Part shown: positions 1 through 64,000 of the stretch, one piece after another
Layout of the letters: each line of letters starts with the position of its first letter
Position numbering within the stretch: the stretch's first letter is position 1
Origin: Eledone cirrhosa
Taxonomy: Eukaryota
DNA: 64,000 bases
Reading direction: 5' to 3'
NCBI GenBank assembly: GCA_964016885.1
Contig: OZ024746.1
Span: 50,406,001 to 50,470,000, forward strand
Position numbers and translations under genes: made by a program
Notes under the pieces: model-generated
Told to the model about the DNA's origin: nothing
The model's database searches: none
What the model saw: the letters and a program-made list of their open reading frames with translations, nothing else

Positions 1-328
1 GAAAAAAATCAATTTTAGAAATCACAAGTAAATATTTCTAAATGTATAAAAAATTGATTATTTTAGGTTTTTCACAAATTGATCATTTTACACAGTATTT
101 CGAAAAATTGTTTTTTTTCAGAAAAGTTTGATTTATTTTCGATTTCGAAAATTGATATATATTATGTATTTTTCAAAAATTTTTCAACGTGTCGAAACAC
201 GATGTATAAACGCATTATTTTGAAAAAAACATTTTTTCCAAATACTGTGTAAAATGATCAATTAGTGAAAAACCGAAAAAAATCACTTTTAGATACCAGA
301 AGTAAATATTTCGAAATGTATAAAAAAA

Positions 329-623
329 TTGCTTATTTTAGGTTTTTCACAAATTGATCATTTTACACAGTATTTCGAAAAATTGTTTTTTTTCAGAAAA
401 GATTGATTTTTTTCTTTCGAAATATATACTTTCTGATTTCAAAAATTGATATATATTTTGTATTTTTCAAAAATTTTTCAACGTGTCGAAACACAATGTA
501 TAAACGCATTTTTTTTAAAAAAAACATTTTTTCCAAATACTTTGTAAAATGATCGATTTGTGAAAAACCCCAAAAAATCAATTTTAGATATCAGAAGTAA
601 ATATTTCGAAATGTATAAAAAAA
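329..623. repeat. Example monomer, class C (longest common class, ~294-295 bp)
   Basis: Loop begins CAGAAAAGATTGATTTTTTTCTTTCGAAATATATACTTTCTGATTTC. Distance between arm-start TTG at 329 and 624 is 295 bp. Confidence 0.93.
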
Positions 624-861
624 TTGATTATTTTAGGTTTTTCACAAATTGATCATTTTACACAGTATTTCGAAAAATTGTTTTTTTTCAAAAAAGTTTG
701 ATATTTTTTCCATTTCGAAAATTGATATATATTTTGTATTTTTCAATAATTTTTCAACGTGTCGAAACACGATGTATAAACGCATTTTTTTGAAAAAAAA
801 CATTTTTTCTAAATACTGTGTAAAATGATCAATTTGTGAAAAACCGAAAAAAATCAATTTT
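620..861. repeat. Intramonomer long inverted repeat: left arm 620-695, right arm 786-861, loop 696-785
   Basis: The reverse complement of 786-861 aligns ungapped to 620-695 with 4 mismatches in 76 bp. GGTTTTTCACAAATTGATCATTTTACACAGTATTT (636-670) is the exact reverse complement of 811-845. Present in all full-length monomers, with variable right-arm divergence. Confidence 0.97.
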
Positions 862-898
862 AGAAATCAGAAGTAAATATTTCGAAATGTATAAAAAA
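624..898. repeat. Example monomer, class A (~275-276 bp); sub-class A' follows at 899-1173
   Basis: Class A loop consensus is CAAAAAAGTTTGATTTTTTTTCGATTTCG (this copy has two private substitutions). A' has CAGAAAAGTTTGATTTATTTTCGATTT. Spacing 624 to 899 to 1174 is 275 bp each. Confidence 0.93.
758..771. other. Small conserved stem-loop CGTGT-CGAA-ACACG in the monomer loop (example copy)
   Basis: 5-bp perfect stem (4 bp in the ACACA allele) with a CGAA loop. This is the GC-richest patch of the monomer and is present in nearly all full-length copies. Confidence 0.8.
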
Positions 899-1173
899 TT
901 GATTATTTTAGGTTTTTCACAAATTGATCATTTTACACAGTATTTCGAAAATTGTTTTTTTTCAGAAAAGTTTGATTTATTTTCGATTTAGAAAATTGAT
1001 ATATATTTTGTATTTTTCAAAAATTTTTCAACGTGTCGAAACACAATGTATAAACGCATTTTTTAAAAAAAAAACATTTTTTCTGAATATTGTGTAAAGT
1101 GATCGATTTGTGAAAAACCCAAAAAAATCAATTTTAGATATCAGAAGTAAATATTTCGAAATGTATAAAAAAA

Positions 1174-1437
1174 TTGATTATTTTAGGTTTTTCACAAATT
1201 GATCATTTTACACAGTATTTCGAAAAATTGTTTTTTTTCAAAAAAGTGATTTTTTTTCGATTTCGAAAATTGATATGTATTTTGTATTTTTCAAAAATTT
1301 TTCAACGTGTCGAAACACAATGTATAAACGCATTTTTAAAAAAAAAAACATTTTTTCTAAATATTGTGTAAAGGTGAAAAACCTAAAAAAATCAATTTTA
1401 GATATCAGAAGTAAATATTTCGAAATGTATAAAAAAA
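1174..1437. repeat. Example monomer, class B (264 bp), usually with a 10-bp deletion in the right arm
   Basis: Loop begins CAAAAAAGTGATTTTTTTTCGATTTCGAAAATTGATATGTATT. The right arm reads TGTGTAAAG-GTGAAAAACCT, lacking TGATCAATTT. Spacing 1174 to 1438 is 264 bp. Confidence 0.93.
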
Positions 1438-1956
1438 TTGATTATTTTAGGTTTTTCACAAATTGATCATTTTACACAGTATTTCGAAAAATTGTTTTTT
1501 TTCAAAAAAGTGTGATTTTTTTTCGATTTCGAAAATTGATATATATTTTGTATTTTTCAAAAATTTTTCAACGTGTCGAGATACGATGGATAAACGCATT
1601 TTTTTGAAAAAAAACATCTTTTCCAAATACTTTGTAAAATGATCAATTTGTGAAAAACCGAAAAAAGTCAATTTTAGAAATCAGAAGTAAATATTTCGAA
1701 ATGTATAAAAAAATTGATTATTTTAGGTTTTTCACAAATTGATCATTTTACACAGTATTTCGAAAAATTGTTTTTTTTCAAAAAAGTGATTTTTTTTCGA
1801 TTTCGAAAATTGATATGTATTTTGTATTTTTCAATAATTTTTCAACGTGTCGAAACACGATAAAAAACATTTTTTCTAAAAATGATCAATTTGTGAAAAA
1901 CCGAAAAAAATCAATTTTAGAAATCAGAAGTAAATATTTCGAAATGTATAAAAAAA

Positions 1957-4900
1957 TTGATTATTTTAGGTTTTTCACAAATTGATCATTTTACACAGTA
2001 TTTCGAAAAATTGTTTTTTTTCAGAAAAGATTGATTTTTTTCTTTCGAAATATATACTTTCTGATTTCAAAAATTGATATATATTTTGTATTTTTCTGTT
2101 TTTATTCAGAAAAGATTGAATTTATATCTTTCTGATTTCGAAAATTGATATATATTTTGTATTTTTCAAAAATTTTTCAACGTGTCGAAACACAATGTAT
2201 AAACGCATTTTTTTGAAAAAAAACATTTTTTCCAAATACTGTGTAAAATGATCAATTTGTGAAAAACCGAAAAAAATCAATTTTAGAAATCACAAGTAAA
2301 TATTTCTAAATGTATAAAAAATTGATTATTTTAGGTTTTTCACAAATTGATCATTTTACACAGTATTTCGAAAAATTGTTTTTTTTCAGAAAAGTTTGAT
2401 TTATTTTCGATTTCGAAAATTGATATATATTATGTATTTTTCAAAAATTTTTCAACGTGTCGAAACACGATGCATAAACGCATTATTTTGAAAAAAACAT
2501 TTTTTCCAAATACTGTGTAAAATGATCAATTAGTGAAAAACCGAAAAAAATCAATTTTAGATACCAGAAGTAAATATTTCGAAATGTATAAAAAAATTGA
2601 TTATTTTAGGTTTTTCACAAATTGATCATTTTACACAGTATTTCGAAAAATTGTTTTTTTTCAGAAAAGATTGATTTTTTTCTTTCGAAATATATACTTT
2701 CTGATTTCAAAAATTGATATATATTTTGTATTTTTCAAAAATTTTTCAACGTGTCGAAACACAATGTATATACGCATTTTTTAAAAAAAAAACATTTTTT
2801 CCAAATACTTTGTAAAATGATCGATTTGTGAAAAACCCCAAAAAATCAATTTTAGATATCAGAAGTAAATATTTCGAAATGTATAAAAAAATTGATTATT
2901 TTAGGTTTTTCACATATTGATCATTTTACACAGTATTTCGAAAAATTGTTTTTTTTCAAAAAAGTGATTTTTTTTCGATTTCGAAAATTGATATGTATTT
3001 TGTATTTTTCAAAAATTTTTCAACGTGTCGAAACACAACGTATAAACGCATTTTTTTAAAAAAAAACATTTTTTCTAAATATTGTGTAAAGGTGAAAAAC
3101 CTAAAAAAATCAATTATAGATATCAGAAGTAAATATTTCGAAATGTATAAAAAAATTGATTATTTTAGGTTTCTCACAAATTGATCATTTTACACAGTAT
3201 TTCGAAAAATTGTTTTTTTTCAAAAAAGTTTGATTTTTTTTCGATTTCGAAAATTGATATATATTTTGTATTTTTCAAAAATTTTTCAACGTGTCGAAAC
3301 AATGTAAAAACGCATATTTTTGAAGAAAAACATTTTTTCCAAATATTGTGTAAAGTGATCAATTTGTGAAAAACCTAAAAATATCAATTTTAGATACCAG
3401 AACTATATATTTCGAAATGTATAAAAAAATTGATTATTTTAGGTTTTTCACAAATTGATCATTTTACACAGTATTTCGAAAAATTGTTTTTTTTCAAAAA
3501 AGTGATTTTTTTTCGATTTCGAAAATTGATATGTATTTTGTATTTTTCAAAAATTTTTCAACGTGTCGAAGCACAACGTATAAACGCATTTTTTTAAAAA
3601 AAAACATTTTTTCTAAATATTGTGTAAAGGTGAAAAACCTAAAAAAATCAATTTTAGATATCAGAAGTAAATATTTCGAAATGTATAAAAAAATTGATTA
3701 TTTTAGGTTTTTCACAAATTGATCATTTTACACAGTATTTCGAAAAATTGTTTTTTTTCAAAAAAGTTTGATTTTTTTTCGATTTCGAAAATTGATATAT
3801 ATTTTGTATTTTTCAATAATTTTTCAACGTGTCGACACACGATGTATAAACGCATTTTTTTGAAAAAAAACATTTTTTCTAAATACTGTGTAAAATGATC
3901 AATTTGTGAAAAACCGAAAAAAATCAATTTAGAAATCAGAAGTAAATATTTCGAAATGTATAAAAGATTGATTATTTTAGGTTTTTCAGAAATTGATCAT
4001 TTTACACAGTATTTCGAAAAATTGTTTTTTTTCAGAAAAGTTTGATTTATTTTCGCTTTAGAAAATTGATATATATTTTGTATTTTTCAAAAATTTTTCA
4101 ACGTGTCGAAACACAATGTATAAACGCATTTTAAAAAAAAAAAACATTTTTTCTAAATATTGTGTAATGTGATCGATTTGTGAAAAACCCAAAAAAATCA
4201 ATTTTAGATATCAGAAGTAAATATTTCGATATGTATAAAAAAATTGATTATTTTAGGTTTTTCACAAATTGATCATTTTACACAGTATTTCGAAAAATTG
4301 TTTTTTTTCAAAAAAGTGATTTTTTTTCGATTTCGAAAATTGATATGTATTTTGTATTTTTCAAAAATTTTTCAACGTGTCGAAACACGATGAATAAACG
4401 CATTATTTTGAAAAAAAACATTTTTTCCAAATATTGTGTAAAGTGATCAATTTGTGAAAAACCTAAAAATATCAATTTTAGATACCAGAACTAAATATTT
4501 CGAAATGTATAAAAAAATTGATTATTTTAGGTTTTTCACAAATTGATCATTTTACAGAGTATTTCGAAAAATTGTTTTTTTTCAAAAAAGTGATTTTTTT
4601 TCGATTTCGAAAATTGATATGTATTTTGTATTTTTCAAAAATTTTTCAACGTGTCGAAACACAACGTATAAACGCATTTTTTAGAAAAAAAACATTTTTT
4701 CTAAATATTGTGTAAAGGTGAAAAACCTAAAAAAATCAATTTTAGATATCAGAAGTAAATATTTCGAAATGTATAAAAAAATTGATTATTTTAGGTTTTT
4801 CACAAATTGATCATTTTACACAGTATTTCGAAAAATTGTTTTTTTTCAAAAAAGTTTGATTTTTTTTCGATTTCGAAAATTGATATATATTTTGTATTTT

Positions 4901-7900
4901 TCAATAATTTTTCAACGTGTCGAAACACGATGTATAAACGCATTTTTTTGAAAAAAAACATTTTTTCTAAATACTGTGTAAAATGATCAATTTGTGAAAA
5001 ACCGAAAAAAATCAATTTTAGAAATCAGAAGTAAATATTTCGAAATGTATAAAAAATTGATTATTTTAGGTTTTTCACAAATTGATCATTTTACACAGTA
5101 TTTCGAAAAATTGTTTTTATTCAGAAAAGATTGAATTTTTATCTTTCTGATTTCGAAAATTGATATATATTTTGTATTTTTCAAAAATTTTTCAACGTGT
5201 CGAAACACAATGTATAAACGCATTTTTTTGAAAAAAAACATTTTTTCCAAATACTGTGTAAAATGATCAATTTGTGAAAAACCAAAAAAAATCAATTTTA
5301 GAAATCAGAAGTAAATATTTCGAAATGTATAAAAAATTGATTATTTTAGGTTTTTCACAAATTGATCATTTTACACAGTATTTCGAAAAATTGTTTTTTT
5401 TCAGAAAAGTTTGATTTATTTTCGATTTAGAAAATTGATATATATTTTGTATTTTTCAAAAATTTTTCAACGTGTCGAAACACAATGTATAAACGCATTT
5501 TTTTAAAAAAAAACATTTTTTCTAAATATTGTGTAAAGTGATCGATTTGTGAAAAACCCAAAAAAATCAATTTTAGATATCAGAAGTAAATATTTCGAAA
5601 TGTATAAAAAAATTGATTATTTTAGGTCTTTCACAAATTGATCATTTTACACAGTATTTCGAAAAATTGTTTTTTTTCAGAAAAGATTGATTTTTTTCTT
5701 TCGAAATATATAATTTCTGATTTCAAAAATTGATATATATTTTGTATTTTTCTGTTTTTATTCAGAAAAGATTGAATTTATATCTTTCTGATTTCGAAAA
5801 TTGATATATATTTTTTATTTTTCAAAAATTTTTCAACGTGTCGAAACACAATGTATAAACGCATTTTTTTGAAAAAAAACATTTTTTCCAAATACTGTGT
5901 AAAATGATCAATTTGTGAAAAACCGAAAAAAATCAATTTTAGAAATCACAAGTAAATATTTCTAAATGTATAAAAAATTGATTATTTTAGGTTTTTCACA
6001 AATTGATCATTTTACACAGTATTTCGAAAAATTGTTTTTTTTCAGAAAAGTTTGATTTATTTTCGATTTCGAAAATTGATATATATTATGTAATTTTCAA
6101 AAATTTTTCAACGTGTCGAAACACGATGCATAAACGCATTATTTTGAAAAAAACATTTTTTCCAAATACTGTGTAAAATGATCAATTAGTGAAAAACCGA
6201 AAAAAATCAATTTTAGATACCAGAAGTAAATATTTCGAAATGTATAAAAAAATTGATTATTTTAGGTTTTTCACAAATTGATCATTTTACACAGTATTTC
6301 GAAAAATTGTTTTTTTTCAGAAAAGATTGATTTTTTTCTTTCGAAATATATACTTTCTGATTTCAAAAATTGATATATATTTTGTATTTTTCAAAAATTT
6401 TTCAACGTGTCGAAACACAATGTATAAACGCATTTTTTTAAAAAAAAACATTTTTTCCAAATACTTTGTAAAATGATCGATTTGTGAAAAACCCCAAAAA
6501 GTCAATTTTAGATATCAGAAGTAAATATTTCGAAATATATAAAAAAATTGATTATTTTAGGTTTTTCACATATTGATCATTTTACACAGTATTTCGAAAA
6601 ATTGTTTTTTTTCAAAAAAGTGATTTTTTTTCGATTTCGAAAATTGATATGTATTTTGTATTTTTCAAAAATTTTTCAACGTGTCGAAACACAACGTATA
6701 AACGCATTTTTTTAAAAAAAAACATTTTTTCTAAATATTGTGTAAAGGTGAAAAACCTAAAAAAATCAATTATAGATATCAGAAGTAAATATTTCGAAAT
6801 GTATAAAAAAATTGATTATTTTAGGTTTCTCACAAATTGATCATTTTACACAGTATTTCGAAAAATTGTTTTTTTTCAAAAAAGTTTGATTTTTTTTCGA
6901 TTTCGAAAATTGATATATATTTTGTATTTTTCAAAAATTTTTCAACGTGTCGAAACAATGTAAAAACGCATATTTTTGAAAAAAAACATTTTTTCCAAAT
7001 ATTGTGTAAAGTGATCAATTTGTGAAAAACCTAAAAATATCAATTTTAGATACCAGAACTAAATATTTCGAAATGTATAAAAAAATTGATTATTTTAGGT
7101 TTTTCACAAATTGATCATTTTACACAGTATTTCGAAAAATTGTTTTTTTTCAAAAAAGTGATTTTTTTTCGATTTCGAAAATTGATATGTATTTTGTATT
7201 TTTCAAAAATTTTTCAACGTGTCGAAGCACAACGTATAAACGCATTTTTTAAAAAAAAAACATTTTTTCTAAATATTGTGTAAAGGTGAAAAACCTAAAA
7301 AAATCAATTTTAGATATCAGAAGTAAATATTTCGAAATGTATAAAAAAATTGATTATTTTAGGTTTTTCACAAATTGATCATTTTACACAGTATTTCGAA
7401 AAATTGTTTTTTTTCAAAAAAGTTTGATTTTTTTTCGATTTCGAAAATTGATATATATTTTGTATTTTTCAATAATTTTTCAACGTGTCGAAACACGATG
7501 TATAAACGCATTTTTTTGAAAAAAAACATTTTTTCTAAATACTGTGTAAAATGATCAATTTGTGAAAAACCGAAAAAAATCAATTTAGAAATCAGAAGTA
7601 AATATTTCGAAATGTATAAAAGATTGATTATTTTAGGTTTTTCATAAATTGATCATTTTACACAGTATTTCGAAAAATTGTTTTTTTTCAGAAAAGTTTG
7701 ATTTATTTTCGCTTTAGAAAATTGATATATATTTTGTATTTTTCAAAAATTTTTCAACGTGTCGAAACACAATGTATAAACGCATTTTAAAAAAAAAAAA
7801 CATTTTTTCTAAATATTGTGTAATGTGATCGATTTGTGAAAAACCCAAAAAAATCAATTTTAGATATCAGAAGTAAATATTTCGAAATGTATAAAAAAAT

Positions 7901-8990
7901 TGATTATTTTAGGTTTTTCACAAATTGATCATTTTACACAGTATTTCGAAAAATTGTTTTTTTTCAAAAAAGTGATTTTTTTTCGATTTCGAAAATTGAT
8001 ATGTATTTTGTATTTTTCAAAAATTTTTCAACGTGTCGAAACACAATGTATGAACGCATTTTTTAAAAAAAAAACATTTTTTCTAAATATTGTGTAAAGG
8101 TGAAAAACCTAAAAAAATCAATTTTAGAAATCAGAAGTAAATATTTCTAAATGTATAAAAAATTGATTATTTTAGGTTTTTCACAAATTGATCATTTTAC
8201 ACAGTATTTCGAAAAATTGTTTTTTTTCAAAAAAGTTTGATTTTTTTTCGATTTCGAAAATTGATATATATTTTGTATTTTTCAATAATTTTTCAACGTG
8301 TCGAAACACGATGTATAAACGCATTTTTTTGAAAAAAAACATTTTTTCTAAATACTGTGTAAAATGATCAATTTGTGAAAAACCGAAAAAAATCAATTTT
8401 AGAAATCAGAAGTAAATATTTCGAAATGTATAAAAAATTGATTATTTTAGGTTTTTCACAAATTGATCATTTTACACAGTATTTCGAAAAATTGTTTTTA
8501 TTCAGAAAAGATTGAATTTTTATCTTTCTGATTTCGAAAATTGATATATATTTTGTATTTTTCAAAAATTTTTCAACGTGTCGAAACACAATGTATAAAC
8601 GCATTTTTTTAAAAAAAAACATTTTTTCTAAATATTGTGTAAAGTCATCGATTTGTGAAAAACCCAAAAAAAATCAATTTTAGATATCAGAAGTAAATAT
8701 TTCGAAATGTATAAAAAAATTGATTATTTTAGGTCTTTCACAAATTGATCATTTTACACAGTATTTCGAAAAATTGTTTTTTTTCAAAAAAGTGATTTTT
8801 TTTCGATTTCGAAAATTGATATGTATTTTGTATTTTTCAAAAATTTTTCAACGTGTCGAAACACAATGTATGAACGCATTTTTTAAAAAAAAAACATTTT
8901 TTCTAAATATTGTGTAAAGGTGAAAAACCTAAAAAAATCAATTTTAGAAATCAGAAGTAAATATTTCTAAATGTATAAAAAATTGATTAT
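1957..8990. repeat. Higher-order tandem duplication, period 3656 bp (~13 monomers); second copy internally shortened, end approximate
   Basis: Rare markers repeat at +3656: C/D chimera TTTTTCTGTTTTTATTCAG (~2091/~5747), CACAAGT linker, CACATATTG and CAATTATAGA. ORF-track pairs 2993/6649, 3174/6830 and 3712/7368 are offset 3656, and 4800/8181 and 5086/8467 are offset 3381. Confidence 0.85.
5057..5336. repeat. Example monomer, class D (280 bp)
   Basis: Loop begins TTTATTCAGAAAAGATTGAATTTTTATCTTTCTGATTTCG. Spacing 5057 to 5337 is 280 bp. Confidence 0.92.
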
Positions 8991-11900: not shown

Positions 11901-12326
11901 ATGTAAAAACGCATATTTTTGAAAAAAAACATTTTTTCCAAATATTGTGTAAAGTGATCAATTTGTGAAAAACCTAAAAATATCAATTTTAGATACCAGA
12001 ACTAAATATTTCGAAATGTATAAAAAAATTGATTATTTTAGGTTTTTCACAAATTGATCATTTTACACAGTATTTCGAAAAATTGTTTTTTTTCAGAAAA
12101 GATTGATTTTTTTTCTTTCGAAATATATACTTTCTGATTTCGAAAATTGATATATATTTTGTATTTTTCAAAAATTTTTCAACGTGTCGAAACACAATGT
12201 AAAAACGCATATTTTTGAAAAAAAACATTTTTTCCAAATACTGTGTAAAATGATCAATTTGTGAAAAACCGAAAAAAAATCAATTTTAGAAATCAGAAGT
12301 AAGTATTTTGAAATGTATAAAAAAAT

Positions 12327-23645: not shown

Positions 23646-26600
23646 TTGATTATTTTAGGTTTTTCACAAATTGATCATTTTACACAGTATTTCGAAAAAT
23701 TGTTTTTTTTCAGAAAAGATTGATTTTTTTCTTTCGAAATATATACTTTCTGATTTCGAAAATTGATATATATTTTGTATTTTTCAAAAATTTTTCAACG
23801 TGTCGAAACACAATGTATAAACGCATTATTTTGAAAAAAAACATTTTTTCCAAATATTGTGTAAAGTGATCAATTTGTGAAAAACCTAAAAATATCAATT
23901 TTAGATACCAGAACTAAATATTTCGAAATGTATAAAAAAATTGATTATTTTAGGTTTTTCACAAATTGATCATTTTACACAGTATTTCGAAAAATTGTTT
24001 TTTTTCAGAAAAGATTGATTTTTTTTCTTTCGAAATATATACTTTCTGATTTCAAAAATTGATATATATTTTGTATTTTTCAAAAATTTTTCAACGTGTC
24101 GAAACACAATGCATAAACGCATTTTTTTTAAAAAAAACATTTTTTCTAAATACTTTGTAAAATGATCGATTTGTAAAAAACCCCAAAAAATAAATTTTAG
24201 ATATCAGAAGTAAATATTTCGATGAATAAACGCATTTTTTTGAAAAAAAAATTTCATCCAAAAAGTGATCAATTTATGAAAAACCTAAAAATATCAATTT
24301 TAGAAATCAGAAGTAAATATTTCGAAAAGTATAAAAAAATTGATTATTTTAGGTTTTTCACAAAATGATCAATTTGTGCAAAACCGAAAAAAATCAATTT
24401 TAGATATCAGAAGTAAATATTTCGAAATGTATAAAAAAATTGATTATTTTAGGTTTTTCACAAATTGATCATTTTACACAGTATTTCGAAAAATTGTTTT
24501 TTTTCAAAAAAGTTTGATTTTTTTTCGATTTCGAAAATTGATATATATTTTGTATTTTTCAAAAATTTTTCAACGTGCCGAAACACAATGTAAAAACGCA
24601 TATTTTTGAAAAAAAACATTTTTTCCAAATACTGTGTAAAATGATCAATTTGTGAAAAACCGATTTCGAAAATTGATATATATTTTGTATTTTTCAAAAA
24701 TTTTGCGTGTCGAAACACGATGTATAAACGCATTTTTTTAAAAAAAAAACATTTTTTCTAAAAATGATCAATTTGTGAAAAACCGAAAAAAATCAATTTT
24801 AGAAATCAGAAGTAAATATTTCGAAATGTATAAAAAAATTGATTATTTTAGGTTTTTCACAAATTGATTATTTTACACAGTATTTCGAAAAATTGTTTTT
24901 TTTCAAAAAAGATTGATTTTTTTCTTTCGAAATATATACTTTCTGATTTCGAAAATTGATATATATTTTGTATTTTTCAAAAATTTTTCAACGTGTCGAA
25001 ACACAATGTATAAACGCATTATTTTGAAAAAAAACATTTTTTCCAAATATTGTGTAAAGTGATCAATTTGTGAAAAACCTAAAAATATCAATTTTAGATA
25101 CCAGAAGTAAATATTTCGAAATGTATAAAAAAATTGATTATTTTAGGTTTTTCACAAATTGATCATTTTACGCAGTATTTCGAAAAATTGTTTTTTTTCA
25201 AAAAAGTGATTTTTTTTCGATTTCGAAAATTGATATGTATTTTGTATTTTTCAAAAATTTTTCAACGTGTCGAAAATCAACGTATAAACGCATTTTTAAA
25301 AAAAAAAACATTTTTTCTAAATATTGTGTAAAGGTGAAAAACCTAAAAAAATCAATTTTAGATATCAGAAGTAAATATTTCGAAATGTATAAAAAAATTG
25401 ATTATTTTAGGTTTTTCACAAATTGATCATTTTACACAGTATTTCGAAAAATTGTTTTTTTTCAAAAAAGTTTGATTTTTTTTCGATTTCGAAAATTGAT
25501 ATATATTCTGTATTTTTCAAAAATTTTTCAACGTGACGAAACACAATGTAAAAACGCATATTTTTGAAAAAAAACATTTTTTCCAAATACTGTGTAAAAT
25601 GATCAATTTGTGAAAAACCGAAAAAAATCAATTTTAGAAATCAGAAGTAAATATTTTGAAATGTATAAAAATATTGATTATTTTAGGTTTTTCACAAATT
25701 GATCATTTTACGCAGTATTTCGAAAAATTGTTTTTTTCAAAAAAGATTGATTTTTTTTCTTTCGAAATATATACTTTCTGATATCGAAAATTGATATATA
25801 TTTTGTATTTTTCAAAAATTTTTCAACGTGTCGAAACACGATGAATAAACGCATTATTTTGAAAAAAAACATTTTTTCTAAATATTATGTAAAGTGATCA
25901 ATTTGTGAAAAACCTAAAAATATCAATTTTAGATACCAGAACTAAATATTTCGAAATGTATAAAAAAATTGATTATTTTAGGTTTTTCACAAATTGATCA
26001 TTTTACACAGTATTTCGAAAAATTGTTTTTTTTCAAAAAAGTTTGATTATTTTAGGTTTTTCACAAATTGATCATTTTACACAGTATTTCGAAAAATTGT
26101 TTTTTTTCAAAAAAGTGATTTTTTTTCGATTTCGAAAATTGATATGTATTTTGTATTTTTCAATAATTTTTCAAAGTGTCGAAACACGATAAAAAACATT
26201 TTTTCTAAAAATGATCAATTTGTGAAAAACCGAAAAAAATCAATTTTAGAAATCAGAAGTAAATATTTCGAAATGTATAAAAAAATTGATTATTTTAGGT
26301 TTTTCACAAATTGATCATTTTACACAGTATTTCGAAAAATTGTTTTTATTCAGAAAAGATTGAATTTTTATCTTTCTGATCTCGAAAATTGATATATATT
26401 TTTTATTTTTCAAAAATTTTTCAACGTGTCGAAACACAATGTATAAACGCATTTTTTGGAAAAAAAACATTTTTTCCAAATACTGTGTAAAATGATCAAT
26501 TTGTGAAAAACCGAAAAAAATCAATTTTAGAAATCAGAAGTAAATATTTCTAAATGTATAAAAAATTGATTATTTTAGGTTTTTCACAAATTGATCATTT

Positions 26601-34800: not shown

Positions 34801-35792
34801 TCAAAAATTTTTCAACGTGTCGAAACACAATGTATAAACGCATTATTTTGAAAAAAAACATTTTTTCCAAATATTGTGTAAAGTGATCAATTTGTGAAAA
34901 ACCTAAAAATATCAATTTTAGATACCAGAAGTAAATATTTCGAAATGTATAAAAAAATTGATTATTTTAGGTTTTTCACAAATTGATCATTTTACGCAGT
35001 ATTTCGAAAAATTGTTTTTTTCAAAAAAGATTGATTTTTTTTCTTTCGAAATATATACTTTCTGATATCGAAAATTGATATATATTTTGTATTTTTCAAA
35101 AATTTTTCAACGTGTCGAAACATGATGAATAAACGCATTATTTTGAAAAAAAACATTTTTTCCAAATATTGTGTAAAGTGATCAATTTGTGAAAAACCTA
35201 AAAATATCAATTTTAGATACCAGAAGTAAATATTTCGAAATGTATAAAAAAATTGATTATTTTAGGTTTTTCACAAATTGATCATTTTACACAGTATTTC
35301 GAAAAATTGTTTTTTTTCAAAAAAGTCATTTTTTTTCGATTTCGAAAATTGATATGTATTTTGTATTTTTCAAAAATTTTTCAACGTGTCGAAACACAAC
35401 GTATAAACGCATTTTTAAAAAAACAAACATTTTTACTAAATATTGTGTAAAGGTGAAAAACCTAAAAAAATCAATTTTAGATATCAGAAGTAAATATTTC
35501 GAAATGTATAAAAAAATTGATTATTTTAGGTTTTTCACAAATTGATCATTTTACACAGTATTTCTAAAAATTGTTTTTTTTCAAAAAATTTTGATTTTTT
35601 TTCGATTTCGAAAATTGATATATATTTTGAATTTTTCAAAAATTTTTCAACGTGTCGAAACACGATGAATAAACGCATTATTTTGAAAAAAAACATTTTT
35701 TCCAAATATTGTGTAAAGTGATCAATTTGTGAAAAACCTAAAAATATCAATTTTAGATACCAGAAGTAAATATTTCGAAATGTATAAAAAAA

Positions 35793-44400: not shown

Positions 44401-44881
44401 TTTTTTTCAGAAAAGTTTGATTTATTTTCGATTTCGAAAATTGATATATATTATGTATTTTTCAAAAATTTTTCAACGTGTCGAAACACGATGTATAAAC
44501 GCATTATTTTGAAAAAAACATTTTTTCCAAATACTGTGTAAAATGATCAATTAGTGAAAAACCGAAAAAAATCAATTTTAGATACCAGAAGTAAATATTT
44601 CGAAATGTATAAAAAAATTGATTATTTTAGGTTTTTCACAAATTGACCATTTTACACAGTATTTCGAAAAATTGTTTTTTTTCAAAAAAGTGATTTTTTT
44701 TCGATTTCGAAAATTGATATGTATTTTGTATTTTTCAAAAATTTTTCAACGTGTCGAAACACAACGTATAAACGCATTTTTTTTAAAAATAACATTTTTT
44801 CTAAATATTGTGTAAAGGTGAAAAACCTAAAAAAATCAATTTTAGATATCAGAAGTAAATATTTCGAAATGTATAAAAAAA

Positions 44882-53800: not shown

Positions 53801-56800
53801 GAAAAATTGTTTTTTTTCAAAAAAGTGATCTTTTTTCGATTTCGAAAATTGATATGTATTTTGTAAAATTGTTTTTTTTCAGAAAAGATTGATTTTTATC
53901 TTTCGAAATATATACTTTCTGATTTCGAAAATTGATATATATTTTGTATTTTTCAAAAATTTTTCAACGTGTCGAAACACAATGTAAAAACGCATATTTT
54001 TGAAAAAAAACATTTTTTCCAAATATTGTGTAAAGTGATCAATTTGTGAAAAACCTAAAAATATAAATGTTAGATACCAGAACTAAATATTTCGAAATGT
54101 ATAAAAAAATTGATTATTTTAGGTTTTTCACAAATTGATCATTTTACACAGTATTTCGAAAAATTGTTTTTTTTCAGAAAAGATTGATTTTTTTTCTTTC
54201 GAAATATATACTTTCTGATTTCAAAAATTAATATATATTTTGTATTTTTCAAAAATTTTTCAACGTGTCGAAACACAATCCATAAACGCATTTTTTAAAA
54301 AAAAACATTTTTTCTAAATACTTTGTAAAATGATCGATTTGTGAAAAACCCCAAAAAATCAATTTTAGATATCAGAAGTAAATATTTCGAAATGTATAAA
54401 AAAATTGATTATTTTAGGTTTTTCACAAATTGATCATTTTACACAGTATTTCGAAAAATTGTTTTTTTTCAAAAAAGTTTGATTTTTTTTCGATTACGAA
54501 AATTGATATATATTTTGTATTTTTCAAAAATTTTTCAACGTGTCGAAACACAATGTATAAACGCATTATTTTGAAAAAAAACATTTTTTCCAAATATTGT
54601 GTAAAGTGATCAATTTGTGAAAAACCTAAAAATATCAATTTTAGATACCAGAAGTAAATATTTCGAAATGTATAAAAAAATTGATTATTTTAGGTTTTTC
54701 ACAAATTGATCATTTTACGCAGTATTTCGAAAAATTGTTTTTTTCAAAAAAGATTGATTTTTTTTCTTTCGAAATACATACTTTCTGATATCGAAAATTG
54801 ATATATATTTTGTATTTTTCAAAAATTTTTCAACGTGTCGAAACACGATGAATAAACGCATTATTTTGAAAAAAAACATTTTTTCCAAATATTGTGTAAA
54901 GTGATCAATTTGTGAAAAACCTAAAAATATCAATTTTAGATACCAGAAGTAAATATTTCGAAATGTATAAAAAAATTGATTATTTTAGGTTTTTCACAAA
55001 TTGATCATTTTACACAGTATTTCGAAACATTGTTTTTTTTCAAAAAAGTCATTTTTTTTCGATTTCGAAAATTGATATGTATTTTGTATTTTTCAAAAAT
55101 TTTTCAACGTGTCGAAACACAACGTATAAACGCATTTTTTAAAAAAAAAACATTTTTACTAAATATTGTGTAAAGGTGAAAAACCTAAAAAAATCAATTT
55201 TAGATATCAGAAGTAAATATTTCGAAATGTATAAAAAAATTGATTATTTTAGGTTTTTCACAAATTGATCATTTTACACAGTATTTCGAAAAATTGTTTT
55301 TTTTCAAAAAAGTTTGATTTTTTTTCGATTTCGAAAATTGATATATATTTTGAATTTTTCAAAAATTTTTCAACGTGTCGAAACACGATGAATAAACGCA
55401 TAATTTTGAAAAAAAACATTTTTTCCAAATATTGTGTAAAGTGATCAATTTGTGAAAAACCTAAAAATATCAATTTTAGATACCAGAAGTAAATATTTCG
55501 AAATGTATAAAAAAATTGATTATTTTAGGTTTTTCACAAATTGATCATTTTACACAGTATTTCGAAAAATTGTTTTTTTTCAAAAAAGTGATTTTTTTTC
55601 GATTTCGAAAATTGATATGTATTTTGTATTTTTCAAAAATTTTTCAACGTGTCGAAACACAACGTATAAACGCATTTTTTTTAAAAAAAACATTTTTTCT
55701 AAATATTGTGTAAAGGTGAAAAACCTAAAAAAATCAATTTTAGATATCAGAAGTAAATATTTCGAAATGTATAAAAAAATTGATTATTTTAGGTTTTTCA
55801 CAAATTCATCATTTTACACAGTATTTCGAAAAATTGTTTTTTTTCAAAAAAGTTTGATTTTTTTTCGATTTCGAAAATTGATATATATTTTGTATTTTTC
55901 AAAAATTTTTCAACGTGTCGAAACAATGTATAAACGCATTTTTTTAAAAAAAAACATTTTTTCTAAATACTGTGTAAAATGATCAATTTGTGAAAAACCG
56001 AAAAAAATCAATTTTAGAAATCAGAAGTAAATATTTCGAAATGTATAAAAAATTGATTATTTTAGGTTTTTCACAAATTGATCATTTTACACAGTATTTC
56101 GAAAAATTGTTTTTTTTCAGAAAAGTTTGATTTATTTTCGATTTAGAAAATTGATATATATTTTGTATTTTTCAAAAGTTTTTCAACGTGTCGAAACACA
56201 ATGTATAAACGCATTTTTTTAAAAAAAAACATTTTTTCTAAATATTGTGTAAAGTGATCGATTTGTGAAAAACCCAAAAAAATCAATTTTAGATATCAGA
56301 AGTAAATATTTCGAAATGTATAAAAAAATTGATTATTTTAGGTTTTTCACAAATTGATCATTTTACACAGTATTTCGAAAAATTGTTTTTTTTCAAAAAA
56401 GTGATTTTTTTTCGATTTCGAAAATCGATATGTATTTTGTATTTTTCAAAAATTTTTCAACGTCTCGAAACACAACATATAAACGCATTTTTTAAAAAAA
56501 AAACATTTTTTCTAAATATTGTGTAAAGGTGAAAAACCTAAAAAAATCAATTTTAGATATCAGAAGTAAATATTTCGAAATGTATAAAAAAATTGATTAT
56601 TTTAGGTTTTTCACAAATTGATCATTTTACACAGTATTTCGAAAAATTGTTTTTTTTCAAAAAAGTTTGATTATTTTAGGTTTTTCACAAATTGATCATT
56701 TTACACAGTATTTCGAAAAATTGTTTTTTTTCAAAAAAGTGATTTTTTTTCGATTTCGAAAATTGATATGTATTTTGTATTTTTCAATAATTTTTCAAAG

Positions 56801-57984
56801 TGTCGAAACACGATAAAAAACATTTTTTCTAAAAATGATCAATTTGTGAAAAACCGAAAAAAATCAATTTTAGAAATCAGAAGTAAATATTTCGAAATGT
56901 ATAAAAAAATTGATTATTTTAGGTTTTTCACAAATTGATCATTTTACACAGTATTTCGAAAAATTGTTTTTATTCAGAAAAGATTGAATTTTTATCTTTC
57001 TGATTTCGAAAATTGATATATATTTTTTATTTTTCAAAAATTTTTCAACGTGTCGAAACACAATGTATAAACGCATTTTTTGGAAAAAAAACATTTTTTC
57101 CAAATATTGTGTAAAATGATCAATTTGTGAAAAACCGAAAAAAATCAATTTTAGAAATCAGAAGTAAATATTTCTAAATGTATAAAAAATTGATTATTTT
57201 AGGTTTTTCACAAATTGATCATTTTACACAGTATTTCGAAAAATTGTTTTTTTTCAGAAAAGATTGATTTTTTTCTTTCGAAATATATACTTTCTGATTT
57301 CGAAAATTGATATATATTTTGTATTTTTCAAAAATTTTTCAACGTGTCGAAACACAATGTATAAACGCATTATTTTGAAAAAAAACATTTTTTCCAAATA
57401 TTGTGTAAAGTGATCAATTTGTGAAAAACCTAAAAATATCAATTTTAGATACCAGAACTAAATATTTCGAAATGTATAAAAAAATTGATTATTTTAGGTT
57501 TTTCACAAATTGATCATTTTACACAGTATTTCGAAAAATTGTTTTTTTTCAGAAAAGATTGATTTTTTTTCTTTCGAAATATATACTTTCTGATTTCAAA
57601 AATTGATATATATTTTGTATTTTTCAAAAATTTTTCAACGTGTCGAAACACAATGCATAAACGCATTTTTTTTAAAAAAAACATTTTTTCTAAATACTTT
57701 GTAAAATGATCGATTTGTGAAAAACCCCAAAAAATAAATTTTAGATATCAGAAGTAAATATTTCGATGAATAAACGCATTTTTTTGAAAAAAAACATTTC
57801 ATCCAAAAAGTGATCAATTTATGAAAAACCTAAAAATATCAATTTTAGAAATCAGAAGTAAATATTTCGAAAAGTATAAAAAAATTGATTATTTTAGGTT
57901 TTTCACAAAATGATCAATTTGTGCAAAACCGAAAAAAATCAATTTTAGATATCAGAAGTAAATATTTCGAAATGTATAAAAAAA
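44882..57984. repeat. ~6.5-kb higher-order tandem duplication (44882-51449 and 51450-57984)
   Basis: Both copies begin with the GGTTTCTCAC allele and end with the 100-bp collapsed monomer. They share variants seen only here: ATAAAAGCATT (~45690/~52260), ACACCGTATTT (~45850/~52418) and GAAACATTG (~48753/~55024). ORF offsets are 6568, 6271 and 6535. Confidence 0.92.
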
Positions 57985-60900
57985 TTGATTATTTTAGGTT
58001 TTTCACAAATTGATCATTTTACACAGTATTTCGAAAAATTGTTTTTTTTCAAAAAAGTTTGATTTTTTTTCGATTTCGAAAATTGATATATATTTTGTAT
58101 TTTTCAAAAATTTTTCAACGTGCCGAAACACAATGTAAAAACGCATATTTTTGAAAAAAAACATTTTTTCCAAATACTGTGTAAAATGATCAATTTGTGA
58201 AAAACCGATTTCGAAAATTGATATATATTTTGTATTTTTCAAAAATTTTGCGTGTCGAAACACGATGTATAAACGCATTTTTTTAAAAAAAAAACATTTT
58301 TTCTAAAAATGATCAATTTGTAAAAAACCGAAAAAAATCAATTTTAGAAATCAGAAGTAAATATTTCGAAATGTATAAAAAAATTGATTATTTTAGGTTT
58401 TTCACAAATTGATTATTTTACACAGTATTTCGAAAAATTGTTTTTTTTCAAAAAAGATTGATTTTTTTCTTTCGAAATATATACTTTCTGATTTCGAAAA
58501 TTGATATATATTTTGTATTTTTCAAAAATTTTTCAACGTGTCGAAACACAATGTATAAACGCATTATTTTGAAAAAAAACATTTTTTCCAAATATTGTGT
58601 AAAGTGATCAATTTGTGAAAAACCTAAAAATATCAATTTTAGATACCAGAAGTAAATATTTCGAAATGTATAAAAAAATTGATTATTTTAGGTTTTTCAC
58701 AAATTGATCATTTTACGCAGTATTTCGAAAAATTGTTTTTTTTCAAAAAAGTGATTTTTTTTCGATTTCGAAAATTGATATGTATTTTGTATTTTTCAAA
58801 AAATTTTCAACGTGTCGAAAAACAACGTATAAACGCATTTTTAAAAAAAAAAACATTTTTTCTAAATATTGTGTAAAGGTGAAAAACCTAAAAAAATCAA
58901 TTTTAGATATCAGAAGTAAATATTTCGAAATGTATAAAAAAATTGATTATTTTAGGTTTTTCACAAATTGATCATTTTACACAGTACTTCGAAAAATTGT
59001 TTTTTTTCAAAAAAGTTTGATTTTTTTTCGATTTCGAAAATTGATATATATTCTGTATTTTTCAAAAATTTTTCAACGTGTCGAAACACAATGTAAAAAC
59101 GCATATTTTTGAAAAAAAACATTTTTTCCAAATACTGTGTAAAATGATCAATTTGTGAAAAACCGAAAAAAATCAATTTTAGAAATCAGAAGTAAATATT
59201 TTGAAATGTATAAAAATATTGATTATTTTAGGTTTTTCACAAATTGATCATTTTACACAGTATTTCGAAAAATTGTTTTTTTCAAAAAAGATTGATTTTT
59301 TTTCTTTCGAAATATATACTTTCTGATATCGAAAATTGATATATATTTTGTATTTTTCAAAAATTTTTCAACGTGTCGAAAGACGATGAATAAACGCATT
59401 ATTTTGAAAAAAAACATTTTTTCCAAATATTATGTAAAGTGATCAATTTGTGAAAAACCTAAAAATATCAATTTTAGATACCAGAACTAAATATTTCGAA
59501 ATGTATAAAAAAATTGATTATTTTAGGTTTTTCACAAATTGATCATTTTACACAGTATTTCGAAAAATTGTTTTTTTTCAGAAAAGATTGATTTTTTTTC
59601 TTTCGAAATATATACTTTCTGATTTCAAAAATTGATATATATTTTGTATTTTTCAAAAATTTTTCAAAGTGTCGAAACACAATGTATAAACGCATTTTTT
59701 TTAAAAAAAACATTTTTTCCAAATACTTTGTAAAATGATCGATTTGTGAAAAACCCCAAAAAATCAATTTTAGATATCAGAAGTAAATATTTCGAAATGT
59801 ATTAAAAAATTGATTATTTTAGGTTTTTCACAAATTGATCATTTTACACAGTATTTCGAAAAATTGTTTTTTTTCAAAAAAGTGATTTTTTTTCGATTTC
59901 GAAAATTGATATGTATTTTGTATTTTTCAAAAATTTTTCAACGTGTCGAAACACAACGTATAAACGCATTTTTTAAAAAAAAAACATTTTTTCTAAATAT
60001 TGTGTAAAGGTGAAAAACCTAAAAAAATCAATTTTAGATAACAGAAGTAAATATTTCGAAATGTATAAAAAAATTGATTATTTTAGGTTTTTCACAAATT
60101 GATCATTTTACACAGTATTTCGAAAAATTGTTTTTTTTCAAAAAAGATTGATTTTTTTTCTTTCGAAATGTATACTTTCTGATTTCGAAAATTGACATAT
60201 ATTTTGTATTTTTCAAAAGTTTTTCAACGTGTCGAAACACAATGCATAAACGCATTTTTTAAAAAAAAACATTTTTTCTAAATACTTTGTAAAATGATCG
60301 ATTTGTGAAAAACCCCAAAAAATCAATTTTAGATATCAGAAGTAAATATTTCGAAATGTATAAAAAAATTGATTATTTTAGGTTTTTCACAAATTGATCA
60401 TTTTACACAGTATTTCGAAAAATTGTTTTTTTTCAAAAAAGTTTGATTTTTTTTCGATTACGAAAATTGATATATATTTTGTATTTTTCAAAAATTTTTC
60501 AACGTGTCGAAACACAATGTATAAACGCATTATTTTGAAAAAAAACATTTTTTCCAAATATTGTGTAAAGTGATCAATTTGTGAAAAACCTAAAAATATC
60601 AATTTTAGATACCAGAAGTAAATATTTCGAAATGTATAAAAAAATTGATTATTTTAGGTTTTTCACAAATTGATCATTTTACGCAGTATTTCGAAAAATT
60701 GTTTTTTTCAAAAAAGATTGATTTTTTTTCTTTCGAAATATATACTTTCTGATATCGAAAATTGATATATATTTTGTATTTTTCAAAAATTTTTCAACGT
60801 GTCGAAACACGATGAATAAACGCATTATTTTGAAAAAAAACATTTTTTCCAAATATTGTGTAAAGTGATCAATTTGTGAAAAACCTAAAAATATCAATTT

Positions 60901-63070
60901 TAGATACCAGAAGTAAATATTTCGAAATGTATAAAAAAATTGATTATTTTAGGTTTTTCACAAATTGATCATTTTACACAGTATTTCGAAAAATTGTTTT
61001 TTTTCAAAAAAGTCATTTTTTTTCGATTTCGAAAATTGATATGTATTTTGTATTTTTCAAAAATTTTTCAACGTGTCGAAACACAACGTATAAACGCATT
61101 TTAAAAAAAAAAAACATTTTTACTAAATATTGTGTAAAGGTGAAAAACCTAAAAAAATCAATTTTAGATATCAGAAGTAAATATTTCGAAATGTATAAAA
61201 AAATTGATTATTTTAGGTTTTTCACAAATTGATCATTTTACACAGTATTTCTAAAAATTGTTTTTTTTCAAAAAATTTTGATTTTTTTTCGATTTCGAAA
61301 ATCGATATATATTTTGAATTTTTCAAAAATTTTTCAACGTGTCGAAACACGATGAATAAACGCATTATTTTGAAAAAAAACATTTTTTCCAAATATTGTG
61401 TAAAGTGATCAATTTGTGAAAAACCTAAAAATATCAATTTTAGATACCAGAAGTAAATATTTCGAAATGTATAAAAAAATTGATTATTTTAGGTTTTTCA
61501 CAAATTGATCATTTTACACAGTATTTCGAAAAATTGTTTTTTTTCAAAAAAGTGATTTTTTTTCGATTTCGAAAATTGATATGTATTTTGTATTTTTCAA
61601 AAATTTTTCAACGTGTCGAAACACAACGTATAAACGCATTTTTTTTAAAAAAAACATTTTTTCTAAATATTGTGTAAAGGTGAAAAACCTAAAAAAATCA
61701 ATTTTAGATATCAGAAGTAAATATTTCGAAATGTATAAAAAAATTGATTATTTTAGGTTTTTCACAAATTCATCATTTTACACAGTATTTCGAAAAATTG
61801 TTTTTTTTCAAAAAAGTTTGATTTTTTTTCGATTTCGAAAATTGATATATATTTTGTATTTTTCAAAAATTTTTCAGCGTGCCGAAACACAATGTAAAAA
61901 CGCATATTTTTGAAAAAAAACATTTTTTCCAAATACTGTGTAAAATGATCAATTTGTGAAAAACCGATTTCGAAAATTGATATATATTTTGTATTTTTCA
62001 AAAATTTTGCGTGTCGAAACACGATGTATAAACGCATTTTTTTAAAAAAAAACATTTTTTCTAAATACTGTGTAAAATGATCAATTTGTGAAAAACCGAA
62101 CATTTTTTCTAAATATTGTGTAAAGTGATCGATTTGTGAAAAACCCAAAAAAATCAATTTCAGAAGTAAATATTTCGAAATGTATAAAAAAATTGATTAT
62201 TTTAGGTTTTTCACAAATTGATCATTTTACACAGTATTTCGAAAAATTGTTTTTTTTCAAAAAAGTGATTTTTTTTCGATTTCGAAAATTGATATGTATT
62301 TTGTATTTTTCAATAATTTTTCAGTGTCGAAACACGATAAAAAACATTTTTTCTAAAAATGATCAATTTGTGAAAAACTGAAAAAAATCAATTTTAGAAA
62401 TCAGAAGTAAATATTTCGAAATGTATAAAAAAATTGATTATTTTAGGTTTTTCACAAATTAATCATTTTACACAGTATTTCGAAAAATTGTTTTTATTCA
62501 GAAAAGATTGAATTTTTATCTTTCTGATTTCAAAAATTGATATATATTTTGTATTTTTCAAAAATTTTTCAACGTGTCGAAACAATGTAAAAACGCATAT
62601 TTTTGAAAAAAAACATTTTTTCCAAATACTGTGTAAAATGATCAATTTGTGAAAAACCGAAAAAAATCAATTTTAGAAATCAGAAGTAAATATTTTGAAA
62701 TGTATAAAAAAATTGATTATTTTAGGTTTTTCACAGATCGATCATTTTACACAGTATTTCGAAAAATTGTTTTTTTTTCAAAAAAGTGATCTTTTTTCGA
62801 TTTCGAAAATTGATATGTATTTTGTAAAATTGTTTTTTTTCAGAAAAGATTGATTTTTTTCTTTCGAAATATATACTTTCTGATTTCGAAAATTGATATA
62901 TATTTTGTATTTTTCAAAGATTTTTCAACGTGTCGAAACACGATGAATAAACGCATTATTTTGAAAAAAAACATTTTTTCCAAATATTGTGTAAAGTGAT
63001 CAATTTGTGAAAAACCTAAAAATATCAATTTTAGATACCAGAAGTAAATATTTCGAAATGTATAAAAAAA
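57190..63070. repeat. Non-adjacent near-copy of ~38456-44067 (offset ~18.7-19.0 kb)
   Basis: ORF pairs 39579/58448, 40092/58961, 40674/59543, 41518/60387 and 42611/61480 are offset 18869, with flanking offsets 18734 and 19003. Shared rare variants are CAGTACTTCG, AGATAACAG and CCGAACATTTT. Confidence 0.88.
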
Positions 63071-64000
63071 TTGATTATTTTAGGTTTTTCACAAATTGAT
63101 CATTTTACACAGTATTTCGAAAAATTGTTTTTTTTCAAAAAAGTCATTTTTTTTCGATTTCGAAAATTGATATGTATTTTGTATTTTTCAAAAATTTTTC
63201 AACGTGTCGAAACACAACGTATAAACGCATTTTAAAAAAAAAAAACATTTTTACTAAATATTGTGTAAAGGTGAAAAACCTAAAAAAATCAATTTTAGAT
63301 ATCAGAAGTAAATATTTCGAAATGTATAAAAAAATTGATTATTTTAGGTTTTTCACAAATTGATCATTTTACACAGTATTTCTAAAAATTGTTTTTTTTC
63401 AAAAAATTTTGATTTTTTTTCGATTTCGAAAATCGATATATATTTTGAATTTTTCAAAAATTTTTCAACGTGTCGAAACACGATGAATAAACGCATTATT
63501 TTGAAAAAAAACATTTTTTCCAAATATTGTGTAAAGTGATCAATTTGTGAAAAACCTAAAAATATCAATTTTAGATACCAGAAGTAAATATTTCGAAATG
63601 TATAAAAAAATTGATTATTTTAGGTTTTTCACAAATTGATCATTTTACACAGTATTTCGAAAAATTGTTTTTTTTCAAAAAAGTGATTTTTTTTCGATTT
63701 CGAAAATTGATATGTATTTTGTATTTTTCAAAAATTTTTCAACGTGTCGAAACACAACGTATAAACGCATTTTTTTTAAAAAAAACATTTTTTCTAAATA
63801 TTGTGTAAAGGTGAAAAACCTAAAAAAATCAATTTTAGATATCAGAAGTAAATATTTCGAAATGTATAAAAAAATTGATTATTTTAGGTTTTTCACAAAT
63901 TCATCATTTTACACAGTATTTCGAAAAATTGTTTTTTTTCAAAAAAGTTTGATTTTTTTTCGATTTCGAAAATTGATATATATTTTGTATTTTTCAAAAA
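60940..64000. repeat. 2131-bp tandem duplication, second copy truncated by the window end
   Basis: ORF pairs 61041/63172, 61222/63353 and 61480/63611 are all offset 2131. Shared alleles are TATTTCTAAAAATTG and AAATCGATATAT. Confidence 0.88.

What the first reader, a model, noticed from the sequence alone, without database searches (positions are those of the whole stretch)
1..64000. A 64-kb chain of foldback units with two alternative pairing registers
Seen: ~76-bp arms alternate in polarity (left 620-695, 90-bp loop, right 786-861, 33-bp linker, next left arm at 895). Any right arm can therefore pair with the left arm upstream across the long loop, the one downstream across the short linker, or a distant one. 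More than half of each monomer is self-complementary. Established: long inverted repeats can form hairpins or cruciforms and are usually unstable, and dyad symmetry has been proposed as a feature of centromeric satellites. Inference: keeping 35-bp perfect stems in many copies may reflect a structural role (centromere or heterochromatin nucleation, or a hairpin-RNA source, since one-strand transcription would give tandem dsRNA stems long enough for Dicer) or a recent origin from a foldback element.
Basis: partly seen in the sequence, partly recalled or inferred. Interest (0 to 1): 0.75.

Follow-up and report, generated by a model that had tools for sequence, protein, structure and literature searches.

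The report
Retroelement-derived fold-back satellite DNA
The window lies inside a 245,000-base tandem repeat whose ~280-base unit holds two mirror-image arms; the unit was likely built from a scrap of a Penelope-type jumping gene by a fold-back copying error, and its arms mutate like the rest of the unit with no matching changes, so the hairpin is likely a decaying relic rather than a maintained structure, though a centromere-region role is untested.

Summary
Observation confirmed: 76-bp arms, 72/76 complementary, 90-bp loop, 33-bp linker, repeated through the window. The window is part of a 244.5-kb array on C6 of a 3.0-Gb genome (probably octopod); the family totals ~0.82 Mb in three large arrays (C6, C7, C10) plus mini-arrays. 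The two registers follow by geometry from tandem repetition of one inverted repeat. Pairing is not maintained: only 38 of 228 arm pairs keep a 35-bp perfect stem, 0 of 169 left-arm substitutions are compensated, neighbouring arms pair no better than random pairs, and arms carry as many substitution types as the loop. It is not a MITE array (97% of arm matches lie in the arrays, none on C1-C5). The outer arm plus linker matches 48 bp (87%) of a dispersed Penelope-like retroelement end; sister satellites on C6, C18 and C25 share that module, and a single C8 island has perfect 88-bp arms around the same linker, marking the fold-back axis. Rare template switches between arms still occur. Blocks sit once per chromosome, mostly beside telomere-like satellites, so a pericentromeric location is plausible but untested. 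Dyad-monomer satellites are known; earlier scan notes describe other palindromic satellites in this genome.

The parts
1..64000 (+). Interior of a 244.5-kb satellite array (C6:50,302,638-50,547,157); 231 units, all in one orientation, with higher-order repeats (best lags 24, 13, 11, 21-23 units)
620..695 (+). Left arm of one unit (76 bp); the more homogeneous arm in this array
696..785 (+). Long loop (90 bp; 110 bp in the family consensus), holds a degenerate sense copy of the retroelement module and the only non-module core
786..861 (+). Right arm (inverted copy of the left arm, 72/76); carries most arm deletions and variants
862..894 (+). 33-bp linker; inferred axis of the original fold-back, shared with sister satellites and the C8 island
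841..888 (-). 48-bp module (outer right arm + linker) matching the terminal region of a dispersed Penelope-like retroelement at 87%
298..592 (+). 295-bp unit form (20-bp longer loop), the majority form in the C7 and C10 arrays
1143..1406 (+). 264-bp unit form with a 10-bp deletion in the right arm that breaks the stem (40 of 224 units)
24206..24408 (+). Two loop-less ~100-bp units: deletion between the palindromic hexamers at symmetric positions of the two arms (14 such short units in the window)

Best explanation
This is a tandem satellite whose unit holds one inverted repeat that likely arose by a fold-back template switch centred on the 33-bp linker, inside an AT-rich satellite superfamily likely built from a ~50-bp segment of a Penelope-like retroelement end, and the pairing is likely not under selection. 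Steps: (1) the 50-bp retroelement segment was copied in tandem and diverged (homology shown; direction retroelement-to-satellite inferred); (2) a nascent strand folded back near the linker and copied ~76-88 bp of its own flank, giving arms (inferred from the C8 island and from present-day local fold-backs); (3) the unit was amplified head-to-tail and homogenised in higher-order blocks on C6, C7 and C10 (arrays and higher-order structure shown; unequal exchange inferred); (4) repetition automatically creates the long-loop register (geometry); (5) the arms now drift apart, with rare template switches, loop deletions and linker inversions as by-products of transient pairing (events shown; pairing in vivo inferred). 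High complementarity reflects youth: arms differ at 3 of 75 consensus pairs while units differ from the consensus by 2.8-4.1%.
For: No compensation: 0 of 169 left-arm substitutions in the window are matched in the same unit and 0 of 148 in the neighbouring unit; across C6-rest, C7, C10 same-unit counts are 1 of 265, 1 of 781, 2 of 695 against 3.0, 14.7, 4.5 expected. Real neighbours pair at 64.1 and 64.0 of 75 positions, random arm pairs at 64.2. Distinct substitution types per site, arms vs loop+linker: 0.89/1.02, 1.03/0.92, 0.99/1.02, p 0.32-0.81. 499 of 1293 aligned units have a gap of 5 nt or more in the right arm. The three left/right consensus mismatches are shared by all large arrays. 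A linker 20-mer has 7900 genome matches, ~1900 in the known arrays; all 40 distinct C1 copies examined lie in one dispersed element with RT-like then GIY-YIG-like frames, inverted truncated copies, (TA)n flanks and a one-sided tail (features as in PMC8557442, passages read). A profile of the element end scores the satellite 19.9 bits vs at most 1.4 in 200 shuffles. The single C8 island has perfect 88-bp arms around the same linker, between oppositely oriented sister-satellite and telomere tracts. A C10 inverted insert carries its neighbour's private variants.
Against: 24 of 361 C10 right arms match the left arm at both inner mismatch sites: an arm-to-arm conversion or a retained ancestral state. 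In C7, 29 of 739 neighbour-unit changes are compensatory against 14.1 expected, though all are one variant at a homopolymer edge. In C6 the left arm is more homogeneous (0.012 substitutions per site) than loop (0.031) or right arm (0.057), and 9 common deletion types hit the right arm, 0 the left (p 0.004; about five overlap a right-arm-only direct repeat), so the left arm/linker may be constrained. Sister satellites on C18 and C25 keep a shorter dyad around the same linker. The tests have little power against weak selection in a young family. Only 48 bp match the retroelement clearly; other module copies score 48 and 40 against a null maximum of 46. Pfam gave no RT hit for the element or its homologues, so the Penelope label rests on motifs and structure read by eye.
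Confidence: 0.7

Rival explanations
1. The array is functional centromeric chromatin in which the linker-centred dyad (cruciform or protein-binding site) is the conserved signal of a satellite superfamily that marks the centromeres of the smaller chromosomes.
For: One block per chromosome on C6 (49% of length), C7 (31%), C8 (51%), C10 (67%), C18 (29%), C25 (68%); telomere-like satellites adjoin the blocks on C6, C7, C8, C18 and C25, none seen in the C10 samples. The linker dyad recurs in three sub-families. Left arm and linker are spared by common deletions. Higher-order repeats. Dyads proposed as centromere features (PMC5889037, abstract; those are under 10 bp).
Against: This family has large arrays on only three chromosomes and no arm match on C1-C5 (lists ascend by contig); arrays are 45-304 kb and several other satellites share each block; pairing is not conserved.
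Confidence: 0.15
2. The array is a hairpin-RNA locus: read-through transcription gives tandem dsRNA stems that feed small-RNA silencing.
For: RNA folds are strong in both registers (z -14 and -15.5); 114 of 228 arm pairs keep a perfect stem of 21 bp or more; all units face one way (749 loops forward, 0 reverse in 233 kb).
Against: Stems are not maintained; stem-breaking right-arm deletions reached high frequency in all three arrays.
Confidence: 0.07
3. The unit is a MITE or Foldback-type DNA transposon (arms = terminal inverted repeats) amplified in tandem with 33 bp of captured flank.
For: Arm-loop-arm geometry; the C7 array starts at the left-arm tip and ends at the linker end; MITE-to-satellite routes are described (PMC12628747, passages read).
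Against: Known arrays explain ~5063 of 5220 arm matches at up to 3 mismatches; no arm match on C1-C5; other array ends fall at varied phases; the linker is homologous to arm sequence and to a retroelement, and is the axis of the C8 island.
Confidence: 0.04
4. The alternating arms are an assembly or sequencing artefact.
For: Palindromic repeats are hard to assemble; the C7 array abuts two gaps.
Against: 147 distinct sequences among 224 units, array-specific variants, and 998 and 1338 raw reads from two other samples lay on the unit, including loop-to-right-arm strand joints.
Confidence: 0.01

Closest known systems
Trichogramma brassicae 385-bp satellite with 80-bp inverted repeats; Tribolium brevicornis 1061-bp satellite with ~470-bp inverted segments; Tribolium madens TmSat2 (all as described in PMC13081366, passages read; the two original papers were not read)
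   Same: Tandem monomer holding long inverted arms; TmSat2 is likewise built from related subunits in opposite orientation; function untested
   Different: Here 0.03% of the genome on three chromosomes rather than a major satellite; donor traced to a retroelement end; per-copy pairing tested and not maintained; large arrays show no macro-dyad
Non-LTR retrozymes and other tandem repeats derived from Penelope pLTRs (bioRxiv 10.64898/2026.07.22.740005, passages read; PMC4209133, search listing only)
   Same: Tandem repeat homologous to the terminal region of a Penelope-like element
   Different: Only a ~50-bp module is shared; Rfam found no hammerhead in the array locus scanned; arrays are hundreds of kb and not dispersed
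MITE- and Foldback-derived satellites (Xenopus Xstir and miDNA4, Drosophila virilis Tetris; PMC12628747, passages read)
   Same: Transposon-derived tandem repeat; stem-loop steps invoked
   Different: No dispersed TIR element or target-site duplication found; donor is a retroelement
Fold-back inversion / quasi-palindrome template switching (PMC7467729, PMC3907307, search listings only; mechanism otherwise recalled)
   Same: Local inverted copy seeded at short palindromes, carrying the neighbour's private variants
   Different: Here fixed in a unit and amplified ~2900-fold

Membership tests
Satellite DNA | Long head-to-tail array of a non-coding monomer | tested here: met
   244.5 kb, ~916 units, one orientation
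Satellite DNA | Array-specific homogenisation and higher-order repeats | tested here: met
   Array-specific consensus differences; median edit distance 0 to nearest twin, 33 to neighbour
MITE / Foldback DNA transposon | Terminal inverted repeats | tested here: inconclusive
   76-bp inverted arms exist, but the axis is the linker and array ends vary in phase
MITE / Foldback DNA transposon | Dispersed solo copies with target-site duplications | tested here: not met
   ~97% of 5220 arm matches in known arrays, none on C1-C5; about 150 matches were not located
MITE / Foldback DNA transposon | Autonomous partner with the same ends and a transposase | not tested
   No transposase search was run; the related dispersed element carries RT-like frames instead
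Centromeric satellite | CENP-A binding | not testable with these tools
   No chromatin data
Centromeric satellite | Present on most or all chromosomes | tested here: not met
   Arm-bearing family on C6, C7, C8, C10; superfamily also C18, C25; 917 sister-motif matches were not listed, so more sites are likely
Centromeric satellite | One internal block per chromosome within satellite-rich DNA | tested here: met
   Six chromosomes sampled
Non-LTR retrozyme | Hammerhead ribozyme in each unit | tested here: not met
   No ribozyme match at E<=0.01 in a 3.3-kb array locus or at E<=1 in five donor loci; minimal hammerheads can escape Rfam
Penelope-like element (the dispersed donor) | RT followed by GIY-YIG endonuclease | tested here: inconclusive
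   Motifs read by eye in L162 and homologue P0002; no Pfam or PDB match
Penelope-like element (the dispersed donor) | Inverted 5'-truncated copy, one-sided tail, (TA)n target bias | tested here: met
   Inverted terminal pairs in L159-L164; terminus preceded by TATATA or TATTTA in 41 of 43 cases
Hairpin-RNA / endo-siRNA locus | Transcription and arm-confined small RNAs | not testable with these tools
   No RNA data could be laid

The most novel reading that the evidence does not exclude
A satellite superfamily born from the end of a Penelope-like retroelement supplies the centromeric DNA of this octopod's smaller chromosomes, one block each, and the feature kept across its diverged sub-families is a dyad around one 33-bp linker.
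Probability: 0.12. Interest if true: 0.7.

Novelty: new member of a known kind. Interest (0 to 1): 0.36.

Why it matters
Long dyads inside satellite monomers are uncommon and are often read as functional (PMC13081366). With about 1,300 aligned copies this array allows the test, and pairing is not maintained. The genome also preserves the apparent path from a dispersed retroelement through sister satellites and a fold-back island to the array. Three paper searches listed no description of a cephalopod satellite or centromere sequence, so the one-block-per-chromosome superfamily is a concrete target for CENP-A mapping.

Tried and rejected
Array ends at arm boundaries (structure-directed breaks): three ends fit, but the C8 and C10 ends fall inside loop, arm or linker; dropped. 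A shared flank motif at the C6 and C8 ends as a Helitron-like end: it belongs to a separate ~470-bp tandem repeat. Donor as a DNA transposon with long TIRs: the inverted pairs enclose RT-like frames and lack matching flanks. CpG decay as a sign of methylation: no excess (0.017-0.021 vs 0.024-0.025); uninformative. Expression: no RNA holder listed. Runs labelled as five other organisms hold pieces of the unit, some joined at GATC to unrelated DNA and at low depth; carry-over from proximity-ligation libraries and true relatives cannot be told apart, so not used. A third-family junction seen in RAD reads had 0 matches in the assembly. Pfam, PDB and Rfam gave no family for the donor; no Atlas result was obtained. 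Look-ups by sequence and near place returned nothing relevant. Rows dropped before counts: units outside 200-330 bp were not aligned (33 of 231 in the window; 144 of 1437 overall). Supplements of the cited papers were not opened; TmSat2 supplementary figures could bear on the comparison.

Full report
Observation. The window is one AT-rich (21% GC) tandem array. Both registers fold far below shuffles (z -12 and -15 as DNA, 40 shuffles). Across copies the stems are weaker than stated: a perfect stem of 35 bp or more is present in 38 of 228 long-loop pairs and 29 of 220 linker pairs. Two registers are not a separate feature: any tandem array of a unit with one inverted repeat has them.

Context. 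The window is C6:50,406,001-50,470,000 of a 3.0-Gb assembly. The flanks look octopod; that label is recalled from the interspersed repeats and agrees with earlier scan notes, and comes from no call of mine. The array spans C6:50,302,638-50,547,157. To its left lie a 30-kb related satellite without long arms (~420-bp unit) and then at least 22 kb of degenerate TTAGGG repeat. Further large arrays lie on C7 (45 kb and 304 kb, each ending at a gap, the first abutting a long CCCTAA-like tract) and C10 (211 kb), with three 3-4-kb mini-arrays on C8. Arrays known account for about 5063 of 5220 arm matches at up to 3 mismatches, ~0.82 Mb and ~2950 units. No arm match is listed on C1-C5, and lists ascend by contig. 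Raw reads of two other samples carry the unit.

Is pairing maintained? I aligned 1293 of 1437 units to a 296-bp family consensus whose arms pair at 72 of 75 positions. Distinct substitution types per site do not differ between arms and the rest in any array (p 0.32, 0.38, 0.81). None of 169 left-arm substitutions in the window is compensated in the same unit and none of 148 in the neighbouring unit; the other arrays are at or below expectation except one homopolymer-edge variant in C7 (29 copies vs 14.1 expected). Real neighbours pair no better than random arms (64.1, 64.0 vs 64.2 of 75). Units differ from the consensus by 2.8-4.1%, similar to the 4% between arms, so youth explains the complementarity. 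Against this: 24 of 361 C10 right arms match the left arm at both inner mismatch sites (conversion or ancestral state); the C6 left arm is unusually homogeneous; and deletions are lopsided, 499 units with a right-arm gap vs 49 with a left-arm gap, 9 vs 0 common types. About five of the nine overlap a direct repeat that only the right arm has; the rest is unexplained.

Do the arms interact? Rarely. In 233 of the 244.5 kb of the C6 array, 749 loops face forward and none backward; 780 linkers face forward and one backward. Three local fold-backs were seen in the large arrays; the C10 one carries its neighbour's private variants, the mark of a template switch. Loop-less ~100-bp units delete between symmetric palindromic hexamers, which hairpin formation or plain slippage could both give. 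The C8 mini-arrays change strand repeatedly, often within arms.

Origin. A linker 20-mer has 7900 genome matches, ~1900 in the known arrays. All 40 distinct C1 copies examined lie in one dispersed element about 96% alike in this segment. It has a sharp end preceded by TA-rich sequence in 41 of 43 cases, a one-sided tail and inverted truncated copies, and encloses broken frames with RT-like and then GIY-YIG-like motifs, 41-50% identical to three database proteins. These are the features given for Penelope-like elements in PMC8557442 (passages read); Pfam and PDB gave no confirming hit. The satellite's outer right arm plus linker matches 48 bp of this end at 87%, 19.9 bits vs at most 1.4 in 200 shuffles; weaker copies tile the left arm and loop (scores 48 and 40, null maximum 46). 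The neighbouring C6 satellite and satellites on C18 and C25 share the module. A single 1.3-kb island on C8 has perfect 88-bp arms around the same linker, flanked by the sister satellite and by telomere tracts in opposite orientations; 230 of 296 consensus positions have near-matches in it (no null run). Whether it is ancestral or a later re-fold, it shows fold-back centred on the linker. Some dispersed element copies also fold back at or near the module.

Mechanism. Most likely (0.7): retroelement segment, tandem proto-satellite, fold-back at the linker, head-to-tail amplification with higher-order homogenisation, and neutral decay with rare template switches. Homology, arrays, decay and the switch events are shown; direction, order and in-vivo pairing are inferred. 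The superfamily forms one block on each of six chromosomes, five of them beside telomere-like satellites, so pericentromeric heterochromatin is a plausible setting; a centromeric function of the dyad is 0.15, a hairpin-RNA role 0.07, a MITE origin 0.04.

Comparison. Satellites with long intra-monomer dyads are known from Trichogramma brassicae (385 bp, 80-bp arms), Tribolium brevicornis and T. madens (PMC13081366, passages; PMC8122249, passages). Tandem repeats from Penelope ends are known as retrozymes (bioRxiv 10.64898/2026.07.22.740005, passages), but no hammerhead was found here. Centromeric dyads in PMC5889037 (abstract) are under 10 bp. Searches listed no cephalopod satellite paper. Verdict: a real, new member of a known kind, with an unusually traceable origin and a negative test for maintained pairing; interest 0.36.

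Noticed in passing
L027, L028 (C6:51.0 and 51.2 Mb): 70-bp tandem repeat matching 28S rRNA (Rfam LSU positions 2359-2388, below gathering score); I recall this region as the R2 retrotransposon target site.
   Followed up: partly
L017, L031-L032 (C6:50.25-50.27 Mb); L058-L062 (C7:29.30-29.47 Mb): Long degenerate interstitial telomere-like tracts directly abutting the superfamily arrays.
   Followed up: partly
L191:4060-5350 (C8:31,025,660-31,026,950): Single palindromic island with perfect 88-bp arms at a switch from CCCTAA to TTAGGG tracts.
   Followed up: yes
L208, L213-L217, L221, L223 (C25:19.88-19.96 Mb; C18:12.85-13.05 Mb): Sister satellites (260-410-bp units) with the same module and a short decayed dyad, next to a 32-bp telomere-like repeat.
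   Followed up: partly
L101, L119, L192 (C8:31.55-31.63 Mb): Three mini-arrays share one left flank with a perfect ~21-bp hairpin but differ in internal strand switches.
   Followed up: partly
L045:8320-L046:7106 (C6:50.548-50.557 Mb); L124: 474-bp tandem repeat right of the array; a different ~470-bp repeat with a central inversion on C8 shares the C6 right-flank sequence.
   Followed up: no
L093, L121, L124, L136: Dispersed ~500-bp segments recurring as inverted pairs a few kb apart.
   Followed up: no
L126-L128 (C10:37.31-37.34 Mb): The first 5 kb of the C10 array and its flank are duplicated 18 kb upstream.
   Followed up: no
L227 (C58:45,300-46,500): Older, diverged copy of the composite module lying between oppositely oriented tracts of a 13-bp satellite.
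   Followed up: no
L016, L065, L079-L089 (C6:50.2 Mb; C7:29.52-29.86 Mb): 19-20-bp and 25-27-bp G-rich satellites in the same blocks; the C7 insert between the two arrays is bounded by assembly gaps.
   Followed up: no
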